Shown here in pieces: positions 11,583-52,946 of a stretch of 64,000 nt of DNA (its first letter is position 1; each line of letters begins with the position of its first letter). The translations under genes were made by a program, and so were the position numbers. Below the pieces are notes generated by a model. It was not told the DNA's origin and made no database searches. It was given only the letters and a program-made list of their open reading frames with translations. Location of the stretch: the NCBI RefSeq assembly GCF_058153355.1, contig NZ_CM177019.1. One strand, given 5' to 3'.

Positions 11583-11763
11583 GCACACCCCGCGCCGCTG
11601 AGAAAAAGCGAAGCGGCACTGCTCTTTAACAATTTATCAGACAATCTGTGTGGGCACTCGAAGATACGGATTCTTAACGTCGCAAGACGAAAAATGAATA
11701 CCAAGTCTCAAGAGTGAACACGTAATTCATTACGAAGTTTAATTCTTTGAGCATCAAACTTTT

Positions 11764-13305
<1,542 letters not shown>

Positions 13306-28410: not shown

Positions 28411-28620
28411 AAATAATGCCGGGCTTAAACCCGGCACCCAACTTGTCGACGAAGTGCGTTTTGTTCATGCCGGATGCGGCGTGAACGCCTTATCCGGCCT
28501 ACAAGATCGTGCAAATTCAATATATTGCATGAGCCATGTAGGCCTGATAAGCGTAGCGCATCAGGCAGTTTTGCGTTTGCCAGCACTTTTAATTCCGGGC
28601 TTAAACCCGGAATTAAGATC
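28411..28620. repeat. REP/BIME-type extragenic palindromes
   Basis: GCCGGATGCGGCGTGAACGCCTTATCCGGCCTAC and inverted copy, flanked by GCCGGGCTTAAACCCGGC hairpins. Confidence 0.7.
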
Positions 28621-41119: not shown

Positions 41120-41851
41120 ATGGCTGAATTACTGTTAGGCGTCAACATTGACCATATTGCAACGCTGCGTAACGCACGTGGTACTGCTTACCCGGATCCG
41201 GTGCAGGCGGCGTTTATTGCTGAGCAGGCGGGGGCGGATGGCATTACCGTGCATCTACGTGAAGATCGTCGCCACATTACCGACCGCGACGTGCGCATCC
41301 TGCGTCAGACGCTGGATACCCGCATGAATCTGGAGATGGCGGTGACCGAAGAGATGCTGGCGATCGCCGTTGAAACAAAGCCGCATTTTTGCTGCCTGGT
41401 ACCTGAAAAGCGCCAGGAAGTCACAACCGAAGGTGGCCTGGACGTCGCAGGGCAGCGTGACAAAATGCGCGATGCCTGTAAACGTCTGGCGGATGCCGGG
41501 ATTCAGGTTTCTCTGTTTATCGACGCCGATGAAGAGCAGATCAAAGCCGCGGCAGAGGTTGGCGCACCGTTCATCGAGATCCACACCGGTTGCTATGCTG
41601 ATGCCAAAACTGACGCCGAACAGGCGCAAGAGCTGGCGCGTATCGCCAAAGCCGCGGCCTTTGCCGCAAGTCTCGGTCTGAAAGTTAACGCTGGTCACGG
41701 TCTGACCTATCACAACGTGAAAGCCATTGCCGCCATTCCTGAGATGCACGAACTGAATATCGGTCATGCCATTATTGGTCGTGCAGTGATGACCGGACTG
41801 AAAGATGCGGTGGCAGAAATGAAGCGTTTGATGCTGGAAGCGCGTGGCTAA
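41120..41851 (+). CDS. pdxJ: Pyridoxine 5'-phosphate synthase
   Basis: ORF trimmed to [21 protein letters not shown] start (243 aa). Confidence 0.95.
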
Positions 41852-42231
41852 TGGCAATATTAGGTTTAGGCACGGATATCGTGGAGATCGCTCGCATAGA
41901 AGCGGTGATCGCCCGATCCGGTGAGCGCCTGGCTCGCCGCGTATTAAGCGATAACGAATGGGAAATCTGGAAAACGCACCACCAGCCAGTGCGTTTTCTG
42001 GCGAAACGCTTTGCCGTAAAAGAAGCCGCAGCAAAAGCGTTTGGCACCGGGATCCGCAATGGTCTGGCGTTTAATCAGTTTGAAGTTTTCAACGATGAGC
42101 TTGGTAAACCACGGCTGCGACTGTGGGGTGAGGCATTAAAACTGGCGGAAAAACTCGGCGTTGTAAATATGCATGTAACGCTGGCAGATGAACGTCATTA
42201 TGCTTGCGCCACGGTAATTATCGAAAGTTAA
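41851..42231 (+). CDS. acpS: Holo-ACP synthase
   Basis: 126-aa [20 protein letters not shown]... Confidence 0.95.
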
Positions 42232-42650
42232 AATAATACCGTTCTCTTTAAAAAGTAAAACCCCCGAACTGGTAAGGAACGGGGGTTTTACTTTACAACT
42301 TTAATTTTGTGCAGCACGCACCCTCAATGAGAGCGATTATGGATCAGTGTGGTTATCTTTTACAAGCAACTTGCAATCTTTAGTATAAAAACTCGAGCCT
42401 TGACGAAGAAATCGATATTGATGGAAAGATTAACGTGACCACCAATTCGTAAGTACATTAAAATTGGCTTCGTTATTGGAGATTTTGCTGTGCTTTAAAC
42501 CATATCACTGAATTCCCCCATTGAAACGAGTGGTGTCGTCAAAGCTCTGGTGTGGAGTGCAGCATGCACCCTCAATAACTCGCACGTTCAGATTTGGGGA
42601 GATGTAAGGGCTAATCTTAACGGCTGCATTCCTTGTTTAAGGAAAAACGA

Positions 42651-42731
42651 ATGACTGATTGCCGATACCTGATTAAACAGGTCATTAAAGTCGTCATTGC
42701 TGTTTTACAGCTGATCCTTCTGTTCTTGTAA
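42651..42731 (+). CDS. shoB: ShoB-like type I toxin peptide (26 aa, hydrophobic)
   Basis: Unlisted short ORF MTDCRYLIKQVIKVVIAVLQLILLFL with AAGGAA SD; matches recalled ShoB. Confidence 0.8.
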   Translation: MTDCRYLIKQVIKVVIAVLQLILLFL

Positions 42732-42924
42732 CACCAGGAAACGTACTTAAGGCGCGTCAGGTTAACCAGCCAGGCGCGCCTTTAATAATTATAAATAAAT
42801 GTCTGGGCAGATATTATATAAATTCATTTGGTGAATAATTATGCTAATGTCATCAATTAAATAAATATAATGGCGTTAAGGCTTTCCTGTAAAATAATTA
42901 ATACTCTACTTCCAGAGCAGAATA

Positions 42925-43194
<270 letters not shown>

Positions 43195-43393: not shown

Positions 43394-44797
43394 TTGAGAA
43401 TGCCGCGCACTGTAACACATAATCCGGATAGCCCCAATAATGACGATGTTTTAGCCGCATCTGAAAAATGGGACGCCTGTAAACCCCCCTATACCAGCGC
43501 ACACATGAAAATCTGTGTTGCTGCCGCCAAAATCATCCTCGCTGCTTCCGGCGTGGCTCGCCGTTCCAAATACGAAAAAGAGAACTATCTCCGTATCGAT
43601 TTCAGCAAAGCCGGTAAGGTTACATTTTACGCCGAGTTTCCAAAAAAGATGGGCCTCAAGGGTAAAAAGCTCGGCGAGTGGCCGGAGCTCGCTATCCAGC
43701 TGGCGCGCGAAAAAGCGCTAGGTATGGCTGACGGTGGCTTGCGGGCAGAGTCCGTACATGCAGCGCTGGAAATGTACCGGGATGACCTCAAAGCCAAAGT
43801 CGCCCGGCAGAAGCTGAGCCTGGACAGTTTCACAACCTACGGGGTGCGTATCGACCGGATTAAAGCAACGTTCGGCGAGCGTGAGGTGTTCAGCGACGTA
43901 ACATACAATCGGCTGGTGGAAGTGCTGGACGAGTGGATCGCCACTCGCTCGAACAATAACGCCCTGGAGTTGTTTGCCGAGCTCCGTCGGTTCTGGAAGT
44001 TCTGCGCACCTACTCTTTGCAACGGCCGCAATGTTGCCGCCAGTCTGCCAGATGATTATGTTTCCTCCCGCGTACAGAAACCCACCCCCACACGGCTTTT
44101 TACCGATATTGAATCAATCGCCCGACTCTGGCTCAATGTTGCTGCCTGCACCTCTGTACACCAGAAGAATGCTGTTCGCTTCATGATCATCACTGGTGTT
44201 CGTCCGATTAATGTCCATAACCTGCGCTGGGACTACGTTTACGAGGAGGCTGGTGAAATTGTTTATCCGGAAGGGGTTATCGGCATGCGAGGGGCTATGA
44301 AAACACAAAAGGCTTTCCGCCTGCCAATAACGCCGGAGATCCGGCGGATTATCGACGAGCAGAAAGCATGGCGTGATTCAGTTCCTGAGTGCAACAGGGA
44401 TTATGTATTTTTGCAGCCGCGTGATCCAATGCAGCCATTTTCAAAACGATCACTGGATAAGCTGGTGAAAACATACAGCCCGGACGGGGCTGTAAAAGGA
44501 ATAAAACATGATGGGACTGTTAAAGGGAAAGACGGTGCATTTAATACGATGTGCCGTAAATTCCTTAAGAGCAATGTTATTGCCTTGATGAAGGAAAGAG
44601 GCTATTCCCGATCAGACCGAAGGGAAATCAGCCTCCTTTGCCTTCACCACTCCAGCAAGTCAGATGACCCGATGGCAGAACATTACGACTTTTCTGATGA
44701 GATTTTACAGGAAGAGATTGCGTTAAAGCGCGAAGCTTTCGAGGCTCACGAGCGGAGCATACTTGCGCAGGTTGCATTGCTACGGCGGCGAGGTTAA
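43394..44797 (+). CDS. int: Phage integrase (probable tyrosine recombinase, divergent)
   Basis: 467-aa ORF at prophage edge beside AlpA-like gene; C-terminal region with conserved R, H and Y residues (..AEHYDF). Confidence 0.7.
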   Translation: MRMPRTVTHNPDSPNNDDVLAASEKWDACKPPYTSAHMKICVAAAKIILAASGVARRSKYEKENYLRIDFSKAGKVTFYAEFPKKMGLKGKKLGEWPELAIQLAREKALGMADGGLRAESVHAALEMYRDDLKAKVARQKLSLDSFTTYGVRIDRIKATFGEREVFSDVTYNRLVEVLDEWIATRSNNNALELFAELRRFWKFCAPTLCNGRNVAASLPDDYVSSRVQKPTPTRLFTDIESIARLWLNVAACTSVHQKNAVRFMIITGVRPINVHNLRWDYVYEEAGEIVYPEGVIGMRGAMKTQKAFRLPITPEIRRIIDEQKAWRDSVPECNRDYVFLQPRDPMQPFSKRSLDKLVKTYSPDGAVKGIKHDGTVKGKDGAFNTMCRKFLKSNVIALMKERGYSRSDRREISLLCLHHSSKSDDPMAEHYDFSDEILQEEIALKREAFEAHERSILAQVALLRRRG

Positions 44798-52620: not shown

Positions 52621-52946
52621 AGTTTTATGTCCTGGTAGATATTTTGAATTTACCCTTTTTGAGAGGGTGGCCGGGCGCTCAAAACCGCTACCAGTCGGCG
52701 GGCGTATTTCCCTTCGGAAGGGTATTGTATTAGCCGCACGCCCGACCATTGAATTCTCAATATCGTGGACATAAAAAATCCGCATGACTGACGGGCGCGG
52801 TTTCCGCTGGTAATAAAGGTGTTTTGAGCACCATGAAGCGGAATATACCCATTGGTTATCGCGGATGTCAATGTATGCTTTTGCAAAAGGTTGTCATCCC
52901 CTTTGCAAAAACACCCGGCGTGCAACCGGGCGTCTGTGAAGGCGGG

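What the first reader, a model, noticed from the sequence alone, without database searches (positions are those of the whole stretch)
42300..42740. shoB toxin locus with duplicated 19-20-bp motif in its upstream region
The 26-aa ShoB-like peptide gene is preceded by two copies of TGCAGCA(C/T)GCACCCTCAAT (about 42308 and 42555), roughly 245 bp apart. These may mark the antitoxin sRNA (ohsC-type) and the toxin mRNA 5' region of a type I toxin-antitoxin pair; the sRNA boundaries cannot be set from sequence alone.
Basis: partly seen in the sequence, partly recalled or inferred. Interest (0 to 1): 0.3.

Follow-up and report, generated by a model that had tools for sequence, protein, structure and literature searches.

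The report
Known shoB–ohsC toxin–antitoxin locus
The repeated 20-base motif is the known pairing site between the small antitoxin RNA OhsC and the leader of the shoB toxin mRNA in an Escherichia coli chromosome, so the finding is correct but ordinary.

Summary
GTGCAGCA(C/T)GCACCCTCAAT occurs exactly twice in the window, at 42309-42328 and 42557-42576, 248 bp apart.

Copy 1 is the first 20 nt of the ohsC antitoxin sRNA gene, read on the minus strand (42250-42328). Rfam RF02495 matches it full length at 104.8 bits against a cut-off of 50. Copy 2 lies in the shoB 5' UTR, ending 75 nt upstream of the ATG of the 26-codon shoB gene (42651-42731).

Because the two genes are transcribed divergently, the direct DNA repeat gives a 20-bp RNA duplex. 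The single C/T difference becomes a G·U wobble.

Synteny (acpS-ohsC-shoB-yfhL), both published promoters and the leader elements match E. coli K-12. Across about 75 Escherichia loci the two copies change together: 6 of 20 pairs are compensatory, and no locus sampled mixes the two alleles.

This is the published 19-nt OhsC/shoB complementarity (Fozo 2008, as cited in PMC3919570).

OhsC does not overlap the shoB transcript; the 5' ends are 142 nt apart, and it acts in trans.

How it represses remains unproven. Folding favours the dinQ-like structural switch already proposed in PMC5066626.

Novelty: already known. Interest: low.

The parts
42250..42328 (-). ohsC antitoxin sRNA gene (79 nt by the K-12 annotation; Rfam hit 42252-42328)
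   Evidence: RF02495 104.8 bits, full length. K-12 ncRNA ohsC b4608 maps here through alignment A1.
42309..42328 (-). Repeat copy 1, which is OhsC nt 1-20 (5'-AUUGAGGGUGCGUGCUGCAC), the pairing region of the antitoxin
   Evidence: The 5' end of OhsC is reported to pair with shoB (PMC3919570).
42252..42294 (-). OhsC terminator hairpin: 15-bp perfect stem, 13-nt loop, nearly palindromic
   Evidence: Inverted repeat I1. Rfam consensus structure, plus a sub-threshold hit on the + strand. Helix 2 is 98.7% paired in A2.
42336..42365 (-). ohsC promoter: -35 TTGTAA (42365-42360), 18-nt spacer, -10 CATAAT (42341-42336)
   Evidence: Promoter scan. The hexamers are the same as those given for E. coli in PMC11264685 Table 2.
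42435..42464 (+). shoB promoter: -35 GTGACC, 18-nt spacer, -10 TAAAAT
   Evidence: Promoter scan. The hexamers are the same as in PMC11264685 Table 2.
42471..42792 (+). Predicted full-length shoB mRNA, about 322 nt. The start is inferred from the -10 (±2 nt) and the end from the terminator hairpin.
   Evidence: Inference. The length agrees with the reported ~320-nt transcript (PMC5397157, PMC5668327).
42472..42497 (+). Leader element 1 (GUUAUUGG...UGCUGUGCUUUA). It is predicted to mask both ends of the OhsC target in the full-length, untranslatable mRNA. The reported second 5' end (+42, about 42512) would remove it.
   Evidence: RNAalifold consensus, duplex -22.5 kcal/mol, pair counts. A four-element model for shoB was proposed in PMC5066626. 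Inferred, not shown.
42557..42576 (+). Repeat copy 2, the OhsC target in the shoB 5' UTR (mRNA +87 to +106, ending 75 nt before the ATG)
   Evidence: An RNase III cleavage site in the shoB/OhsC duplex region was detected in vivo in K-12 (PMC6212723).
42623..42634 (+). Leader element 3 (GCUGCAUUCCUU). It contains the anti-SD UUCCUU and can pair either with 42554-42563 or with the SD.
   Evidence: Invariant in all haplotypes, so there is no covariation to test.
42639..42644 (+). shoB Shine-Dalgarno AAGGAA, predicted to sit in a 6-bp hairpin with 42629-42634
   Evidence: The RBS AAGGAA is 100% conserved in E. coli (PMC11264685).
42651..42731 (+). shoB CDS, 26 aa, MTDCRYLIKQVIKVVIAVLQLILLFL
   Evidence: 23 of 26 residues are identical to K-12 ShoB. 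The exact sequence is on record as 'small toxic protein shoB [Escherichia coli]'.
42749..42782 (+). shoB terminator hairpin (AAGGCGCGUC.GGUU....AACC.GGCGCGCCUU)
   Evidence: Inverted repeat I2 and the MFE structure. The tail is poor in U and the simple terminator scan missed it.

Best explanation
This is the chromosomal shoB-ohsC type I toxin-antitoxin locus of an Escherichia coli-like genome, sitting between acpS and yfhL. shoB encodes a 26-aa hydrophobic membrane toxin on an mRNA of about 320 nt with a 180-nt leader. ohsC is transcribed divergently from a promoter 142 bp upstream of the shoB start. It gives a 79-nt sRNA whose first 20 nt are the reverse complement of leader positions +87 to +106. 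OhsC pairs in trans with the leader (20 bp here: 19 Watson-Crick pairs and one G·U) and blocks ShoB synthesis. The most likely route is inferred, not shown. In the full-length mRNA a 5' element masks the target and the SD sits in an anti-SD hairpin. Removing about 41 nt from the 5' end lets the target's conserved half (GGAGUGCAGC) pair with the anti-SD segment and free the SD. OhsC binding takes the target away again, the SD hairpin re-forms, and the duplex becomes an RNase III substrate.
For: Identity of the locus: RF02495 matches full length at 104.8 bits. Synteny and the alignment to K-12 match the annotated shoB (b4687) and ohsC (b4608). ShoB is 23/26 identical to K-12, and the exact peptide is named ShoB in NCBI. 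Both published promoters are present (PMC11264685). Pairing: the 20-nt repeat. The cognate duplex is -39.4 kcal/mol, against -17 to -21 for non-cognate allele combinations. In 10 distinct haplotypes the intermolecular helix is 98% paired, and 6 of 20 pairs are changed on both sides. Every wobble pair is G in OhsC opposite U in the mRNA, the only direction of a C/T difference that keeps pairing. No mixed alleles appear among 69 complete loci plus 4 further genomes sampled. Inside the two transcripts, the only polymorphic clusters are the seed (42317-42324) and the target (42565-42572). Literature: 19-nt complementarity of the OhsC 5' end to the shoB 5' UTR, and repression of toxicity (PMC3919570, PMC5668327, citing Fozo 2008); RNase III cleavage in the duplex region in vivo (PMC6212723). 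Switch: RNAalifold pairs the 5' element with both flanks of the target and puts the SD in a hairpin. Whole-mRNA partition functions give an SD hairpin probability of 0.59 for full length, 0.03 for the +42 form and 0.82 for +42 with the target blocked; the SD is unpaired with probability 0.34, 0.78 and 0.14 respectively. This agrees with the reports that only the form shortened by 41 nt is translated, and with the four-element proposal for shoB (PMC5066626, PMC5397157).
Against: Nothing contradicts the identity of the locus. The mechanistic steps are weaker. The leader is about 98% invariant, so the intramolecular helices show no compensatory changes. The predicted switch depends on the 3' boundary used: with the RNA cut at 42670 the +42 form keeps the SD hairpin (0.84). 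Opening energies of the target are similar (9-12 kcal/mol) for all 5' truncations. The six compensatory pairs essentially reflect one allele replacement, and the two sites are only 248 bp apart, so linkage inflates the count. Transcript ends in this strain are inferred, not measured. No Pfam or NCBIfam HMM covers the 26-aa peptide. The O157-type allele carries one U·U mismatch in the duplex.
Confidence: 0.93

Rival explanations
1. Same locus, different mechanism. OhsC represses by occupying a single-stranded ribosome standby site in the leader, as IstR-1 does on tisB and OrzO on zorO, rather than by triggering refolding of an anti-SD element.
For: The target lies 75 nt upstream of a structured RBS. 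The gene arrangement is the same as for tisB-istR-1 and zorO-orzO. This possibility is raised explicitly for shoB in PMC5397157 and PMC4147584. The variable core of the target (42565-42571) is an internal loop in the consensus fold. With a short 3' boundary the SD hairpin persists in the +42 form, so something else would then be needed for initiation.
Against: In the whole-mRNA model the target is mostly paired (mean unpaired probability 0.31) in both the +1 and +42 forms. The 10-bp alternative pairing with the anti-SD segment is invariant and strong (-19.3 kcal/mol). The two mechanisms do not exclude each other.
Confidence: 0.3
2. Sok/mok-like control. OhsC blocks translation of an upstream reading frame (GTG 42550 to TGA 42652-42654) whose stop overlaps the shoB ATG (ATGA), and shoB is translated only by coupling to it.
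For: A 34-codon frame starts 7 nt before the target, covers it, and ends in an ATGA overlap with shoB. The frame stays open in the type-B allele and in the other haplotypes read by eye. One metagenome haplotype has ATG instead of GTG at 42550. PMC4147584 mentions a Sok-like option in general terms.
Against: There is no Shine-Dalgarno-like sequence before GTG 42550 (AAAGCUCUG). The peptide sequence is not conserved across alleles (AACTLN versus AALDSN). The nucleotide conservation is explained by RNA structure. No report of such a leader peptide was found in the papers read.
Confidence: 0.05
3. A cis-encoded antisense RNA overlapping the shoB leader, as in hok/sok, ldr/rdl or ibs/sib, is the antitoxin. 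The reader's refutation test implies this.
For: Most classical type I systems work this way.
Against: The OhsC gene ends at 42328 and runs away from shoB. The shoB promoter is at 42435-42464. No promoter-like site on the minus strand lies opposite the leader, and no Rfam family matches there. The literature describes the pair as divergent and non-overlapping (PMC3919570, PMC2887945).
Confidence: 0.02
4. The repeat is a chance duplication or a pair of DNA sites for a regulatory protein, such as a looping transcription factor, and not an RNA-RNA pairing element.
For: The copies are direct repeats in DNA that flank both promoters. CpxR is reported to bind two boxes in this intergenic region (PMC9600279, PMC11264685).
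Against: Both copies lie inside transcripts, and copy 1 starts exactly at OhsC +1. The block of seven positions differs between alleles yet is matched within each genome. Differences within a genome are C in copy 1 and T in copy 2, which is G·U compatible, with one exception. The reported CpxR boxes lie elsewhere (one overlaps the ohsC -35 per PMC11264685). The chance expectation is about 0.03 or less.
Confidence: 0.01

Closest known systems
shoB-ohsC (ryfB-ryfC) of E. coli K-12 MG1655: b4687 / b4608, Rfam RF02495
   Same: Same chromosomal position (acpS-ohsC-shoB-yfhL). Same divergent arrangement, promoters, 79-nt sRNA with the same terminator, same 180-nt leader, SD and 26-codon ORF. The pairing register between OhsC nt 1-20 and the leader is also the same.
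   Different: ShoB carries R10Q, I14V and I15V, a rare variant seen on 2 contigs in the 15-billion-protein collection. OhsC starts with A instead of G, so pair 1 is A-U rather than G·U. OhsC has G instead of A at nt 12, so pair 12 is G·U rather than A-U. The best identity of the intergenic region to any of 5,426 complete E. coli genomes is 95.1%, while the flanking genes reach 98.8%.
O157:H7-type allele of shoB-ohsC (about one third of E. coli genomes)
   Same: Same locus and architecture. The conserved half of the repeat, GTGCAGCA, is identical.
   Different: Seven of 19 positions of the seed and of the target are replaced together (CACACGATTCCAAC / CACTCGATTCCAAT). The predicted cross-allele duplexes are about 12-22 kcal/mol weaker. 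The window belongs to the K-12-type class.
dinQ-agrB (E. coli)
   Same: Divergent sRNA pairing to a long 5' UTR far from the RBS. The primary transcript is inactive and 5' processing (+44 in dinQ, +42 in shoB) activates it. Four leader elements have mutually exclusive pairings, and sRNA binding restores the closed SD hairpin (PMC5066626). The window's leader reproduces this pattern in silico.
   Different: There is no sequence homology. The shoB switch has not been tested experimentally, the sRNA pairing region is shorter (20 versus 34 nt), and shoB is not LexA-regulated as far as the papers read say.
tisB-istR-1 and zorO-orzO (E. coli)
   Same: Divergent, non-overlapping type I pairs with 18-21 nt of complementarity at the sRNA 5' end, a target in the 5' UTR about 100 nt upstream of the RBS, activation by processing, and RNase III cleavage of the duplex (PMC3919570, PMC5397157, PMC7708055).
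   Different: In those systems competition for a standby site is demonstrated. For shoB it is only hypothesised. OrzO-P (RF02083) scores only 24.6 bits here against a gathering score of 60, so ohsC is not a member of that RNA family.

Membership tests
shoB-ohsC type I toxin-antitoxin system | sRNA matching the ohsC covariance model (Rfam RF02495) above its gathering score | tested here: met
   104.8 bits against 50, model 1-77/77, 42252-42328 minus strand
shoB-ohsC type I toxin-antitoxin system | 26-aa hydrophobic ShoB ORF homologous to K-12 ShoB | tested here: met
   MTDCRYLIKQVIKVVIAVLQLILLFL is 23/26 identical to K-12. The exact sequence is named shoB in NCBI. No HMM exists in Pfam or NCBIfam, so there is no profile test.
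shoB-ohsC type I toxin-antitoxin system | Divergent, non-overlapping genes between acpS and yfhL | tested here: met
   Annotation of K-12, O157 and strain 18KM2445 plus the alignment. There are 142 nt between the OhsC 5' end and the inferred shoB start.
shoB-ohsC type I toxin-antitoxin system | About 19 nt of complementarity between the OhsC 5' end and the shoB 5' UTR | tested here: met
   20 bp (19 Watson-Crick and 1 G·U), -39.4 kcal/mol. Covariation across haplotypes.
shoB-ohsC type I toxin-antitoxin system | Both genes expressed: promoters, terminators, and transcripts of ~80 nt and ~320/280 nt | tested here: inconclusive
   The published promoter hexamers and both terminator hairpins are present. 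Transcripts cannot be measured with these tools.
shoB-ohsC type I toxin-antitoxin system | ShoB overproduction is toxic (membrane depolarisation) and OhsC relieves it | not testable with these tools
   Shown for K-12 (Fozo 2008, as cited in PMC5668327 and PMC8309996). The effect of R10Q/I14V/I15V is unknown.
cis-encoded overlapping antisense type I systems (hok/sok, ldr/rdl, ibs/sib) | Antitoxin transcribed from the strand opposite the toxin mRNA and overlapping it | tested here: not met
   ohsC lies entirely upstream of the shoB promoter (42250-42328 versus 42435-42464). No minus-strand promoter-like site or RNA family lies opposite the leader.
dinQ-like four-element leader switch (works-like, not homology) | Mutually exclusive pairings 1:2, 2:3 and 3:4, with 5' processing between elements 1 and 2 and the sRNA target overlapping element 2 | tested here: inconclusive
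   All three helices are possible and conserved: -22.5, -19.3 and -6.9 kcal/mol, 99-100% paired. The whole-mRNA ensemble behaves as the model predicts. There is no compensatory variation, and the result changes with the 3' boundary.
standby-site systems (tisB-istR-1, zorO-orzO) | Single-stranded 30S loading site at the sRNA target, upstream of a sequestered RBS | tested here: inconclusive
   The RBS is sequestered in some models. The target is only 31-45% unpaired on average. 30S binding cannot be tested here.

The most novel reading that the evidence does not exclude
E. coli carries at least two mutually incompatible specificity classes of the OhsC seed and its shoB target. The K-12 type includes this window's rare sub-allele; the O157 type is the other. 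A block of seven positions was replaced in both copies, so each antitoxin would control only its own allele. Complementarity may be maintained by gene conversion between the two direct DNA repeats as well as by selection. PMC11264685 (2024) noted the variability of the pairing regions but stated that pairing potential had not been validated for shoB-ohsC. The counts here supply that validation in silico. The window adds only one more compatible variant.
Probability: 0.5. Interest if true: 0.3.

Novelty: already known. Interest (0 to 1): 0.1.

Why it matters
For the window it matters little. It is a correct annotation of a well-described type I toxin-antitoxin pair that most pipelines annotate only in part: RefSeq records list shoB but usually not ohsC. 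The broader points are modest. First, a short direct repeat flanking divergent promoters is a usable sequence signature for trans-acting 'divergent' type I antitoxins, a class said to be hard to predict (PMC2887945). Second, the seed and target co-vary as a block between E. coli lineages. This is in-silico support for the pairing in vivo and suggests allele-specific antitoxin control, which would be worth a simple cross-rescue experiment.

Tried and rejected
- **Protein homology search:** Pfam and NCBIfam have no ShoB model. Membership on the protein side therefore rests on direct identity and the exact-sequence look-up.
- **Fozo 2008 (PMC2597788):** not held. Its results are cited second-hand from papers that were read.
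- **Terminator scan:** found nothing in 42200-42950. The OhsC hairpin has a 13-nt loop and the shoB hairpin has a U-poor tail, so the hairpins were taken from the repeat and folding results instead.
- **Does removing the 5' end expose the target?** Opening energies gave no clear trend, 9-12 kcal/mol for all truncations.
- **Third co-varying partner:** positions 42479/42481 of the mRNA 5' element against 42572/42570. 42479-42572 always pairs (G·U, A-U or G-C) with no two-sided change. 42481-42570 fails in E. whittamii. This was rejected as evidence.
- **Counting exact type-B copies in 5,426 genomes:** 1693 for copy 1 and 1597 for copy 2. The counts are not equal, so they cannot prove that mixed haplotypes are absent. 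Three type-B-like genomes sampled at 98-99% identity carried both type-B copies. A band of 23 genomes at 90-95% identity was not inspected.
- **GTDB species scan for the ShoB N-terminus:** found only Escherichia, plus one chance hit in a Ruminococcaceae MAG that does not encode a ShoB-like peptide.

Full report
**Observation.** The sequence GTGCAGCA(C/T)GCACCCTCAAT is present twice on the plus strand, at 42309-42328 and 42557-42576. The copies are 248 bp apart and 19 of 20 positions are identical. Nothing else in the 64-kb window matches on either strand, even with three mismatches; shuffled sequence gives a mean of 0.03 matches. Only five local direct repeats of 18 nt or more exist in the whole window. 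A 26-codon ORF (42651-42731, MTDCRYLIKQVIKVVIAVLQLILLFL) follows copy 2.

**What the two copies are.**
- A scan of the window against Rfam finds ohsC_RNA (RF02495) at 42252-42328 on the minus strand. The match is full length, 104.8 bits against a gathering score of 50.
- The 5' end of that RNA is position 42328, so copy 1 read on the minus strand is OhsC nt 1-20 (AUUGAGGGUGCGUGCUGCAC).
- The region lies between acpS (41851-42231) and yfhL (42925-43185, minus strand), as in E. coli K-12. There shoB (b4687) and ohsC (b4608, 79 nt) are annotated in the same order and orientation.
- Alignment with K-12, O157:H7 and another E. coli strain places OhsC at 42250-42328 and shows a nearly invariant shoB leader and coding region.
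- The promoter hexamers published for E. coli are both found by the consensus scan. They are shoB -35 GTGACC / -10 TAAAAT at 42435-42464 (plus strand) and ohsC -35 TTGTAA / -10 CATAAT at 42365-42336 (minus strand) (PMC11264685, Table 2).
- The ohsC -10 puts its start at 42328. The shoB -10 puts its start near 42471.
- With the terminator hairpin at 42749-42782, the shoB mRNA would be about 322 nt. This agrees with the reported ~320-nt transcript (PMC5397157, PMC5668327).
- Copy 2 is therefore +87 to +106 of the shoB leader and ends 75 nt before the ATG.

**Why a direct repeat.** The two genes are transcribed divergently, from starts 142 nt apart, and do not overlap. A sequence repeated in the same orientation in the DNA therefore appears in sense in the mRNA and in antisense in the sRNA. 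The repeat is the DNA footprint of a 20-bp intermolecular duplex. The one C/T difference between the copies gives G (OhsC nt 12) opposite U, a wobble pair. The predicted duplex energy is -39.4 kcal/mol. This is the known '19 nt of complementarity' between the OhsC 5' end and the shoB 5' UTR (PMC3919570, citing Fozo et al. 2008). RNase III cleavage in this duplex region has been detected in vivo in K-12 (PMC6212723).

**Evidence from relatives.**
- A scan of one genome per GTDB species for the ShoB N-terminus found the gene only in Escherichia: E. coli, E. albertii, E. whittamii and unnamed species. This matches the narrow distribution reported in PMC2887945.
- A metagenome scan with the shoB promoter gave 71 more loci.
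- Two allele classes of the repeat exist. The K-12 type is TGCAGCA(T/C)G(C/T)ACCCTCAA(C/T), and the window belongs to it. The O157 type is TGCAGCACACGATTCCAAC in ohsC and TGCAGCACTCGATTCCAAT in the leader.
- In every locus where both copies could be read, both were of the same class.
- Within the two transcripts, the seed (42317-42324) and the target (42565-42572) are the only polymorphic clusters.
- Counted on 10 distinct haplotypes, the intermolecular helix is 98% paired and 6 of 20 pairs are changed on both sides. The register is unique: sliding the partner by 1-3 columns drops whole-structure pairing from 98.3% to 33-53%.
- All wobble pairs have G in OhsC and U in the mRNA.
- Cross-class duplexes are predicted at -17 to -21 kcal/mol, against -33 to -40 for cognate ones.
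- Caveats: the six compensatory pairs stem essentially from one allele replacement, the sites are tightly linked, and gene conversion between the repeats could contribute.
- Counts of exact type-B copies in 5,426 complete genomes (1693 for copy 1, 1597 for copy 2) do not by themselves exclude rare mixed haplotypes.
- PMC11264685 noted the variability of these regions and said pairing potential had not yet been validated for shoB-ohsC. The analysis here fills that gap computationally.

**Mechanism: shown versus inferred.** Shown in K-12, as cited in the papers read:
- ShoB overproduction depolarises the membrane and kills.
- OhsC abolishes the toxicity.
- A fusion with the longest 5' end gives no reporter activity, whereas a 5' end 41 nt downstream does (PMC5066626, PMC5397157, PMC5668327, PMC8309996).

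How binding 75 nt upstream of the ATG represses translation has not been shown. Kristiansen et al. proposed that shoB has four leader elements that could fold like those of dinQ (PMC5066626). In the window these elements are all present:
- Element 1: 42472-42479 and 42486-42497.
- Element 2: 42553-42579, which contains the OhsC target.
- Element 3: 42623-42634, which contains the anti-SD UUCCUU.
- Element 4: the SD AAGGAA at 42639-42644.

RNAalifold on 12 Escherichia leaders pairs element 1 with both flanks of the target and closes the SD hairpin. Partition functions over the whole mRNA give the following:

| RNA form | P(SD hairpin) | P(SD unpaired) |
|---|---|---|
| Full length | 0.59 | 0.34 |
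| +42 form | 0.03 | 0.78 |
| +42 with target blocked, as by OhsC | 0.82 | 0.14 |

In the +42 form the 2:3 helix has probability 0.96. This fits the published behaviour, but it is only a thermodynamic model. The helices are invariant, so covariation is uninformative. The outcome also changes if the RNA is truncated at 42670. A standby-site mechanism like that of tisB or zorO remains a serious alternative and is not exclusive. A mok-like upstream frame (42550-42654, ATGA overlap with shoB) is open in all haplotypes but lacks an SD and has no peptide conservation, so I rate it unlikely.

It is supported. The locus is shoB, copy 1 marks the ohsC sRNA and copy 2 marks the toxin leader.

**What is particular to this window.**
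- The flanking genes are up to 98.8% identical to E. coli. The acpS-yfhL intergenic region is at best 95.1% identical to any of 5,426 complete genomes.
- The ShoB variant (Q10, V14, V15) is rare but already deposited as E. coli ShoB.
- OhsC begins with A, so the terminal pair is A-U instead of the K-12 G·U.
- None of this changes the architecture.

**Verdict.** This is a real feature, correctly read, and already known. Interest is low.

Noticed in passing
window 43394-64000: Directly after yfhL the K-12 neighbour yfhH is replaced by a prophage-like element. It starts with a tyrosine integrase ORF (43394-44797) and runs to the end of the window. Related E. coli genomes carry it at the same site, with SNF2, Rha, Ant, family-A DNA polymerase, DUF2800/DUF2815, LexA-like repressor, DUF5906 primase, antiterminator Q, holin, lysozyme and terminase genes. 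Only 1 of 5,426 genomes covers at least 80% of it.
   Followed up: partly
window 42248-42294: The OhsC terminator hairpin is almost palindromic and also scores on the plus strand (37.6 bits, below threshold). It sits 21 nt after the acpS stop, so it probably serves as a bidirectional terminator for the era-recO-pdxJ-acpS transcript and for ohsC.
   Followed up: partly
window 42550-42654: A 34-codon frame starts at a GTG and covers the OhsC target. Its TGA overlaps the shoB ATG (ATGA). It is open in all haplotypes seen, and one metagenome haplotype (L040) has ATG at the start. There is no SD in front of it.
   Followed up: partly
window 42592 (column 122 of alignment A3): This single position in the otherwise ~98% invariant shoB leader carries all four nucleotides among Escherichia haplotypes (A in the window, T in K-12, G in L005, C in E. 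whittamii). It falls in a predicted unpaired bulge.
   Followed up: no
L003, L013 and other O157-type loci (seed/target pair 11): The O157-type allele has a U·U mismatch in the middle of the OhsC-shoB duplex (A in the ohsC copy, T in the leader copy). Its cognate duplex is predicted about 7 kcal/mol weaker than the K-12 type.
   Followed up: partly
L036 (metagenome contig QZLQ01000519.1) and L087 (E. coli NCTC122, NZ_LT906474.1): These are disrupted versions of the locus. In L036, ohsC and the shoB promoter are followed directly by the sequence downstream of shoB, which looks like an antitoxin-only deletion. In L087, an IS3-family element (ISSen4) sits immediately upstream of the shoB -10, and the ohsC copy of the repeat is absent from the 1.3 kb fetched around shoB.
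   Followed up: no
window 28414-28434 and 28590-28610: A 21-nt direct repeat TAAT(G/T)CCGGGCTTAAACCCGG, 95% identical and 176 bp apart, flanks the Rfam ES036 (CssrF) sRNA hit at 28503-28545. Each copy contains a small CCGGG...CCCGG hairpin.
   Followed up: no
window 11675-11692 and 11943-11960: An 18-nt sequence in the rRNA operon leader (TAACGTCGCAAGACGAAA) recurs with one mismatch inside the 16S rRNA gene, 268 bp downstream.
   Followed up: no
window 52661-52747 (minus strand): An Rfam sRNA-Xcc1 hit (68.2 bits against a gathering score of 53) lies inside the prophage-like element.
   Followed up: no
window 42232-42924 versus flanks: Divergence is locally elevated. The acpS-yfhL intergenic region is at best 95.1% identical to any complete E. 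coli genome, while the adjacent 3.2 kb of housekeeping genes reach 98.8%. This suggests an old or imported haplotype at this locus.
   Followed up: partly
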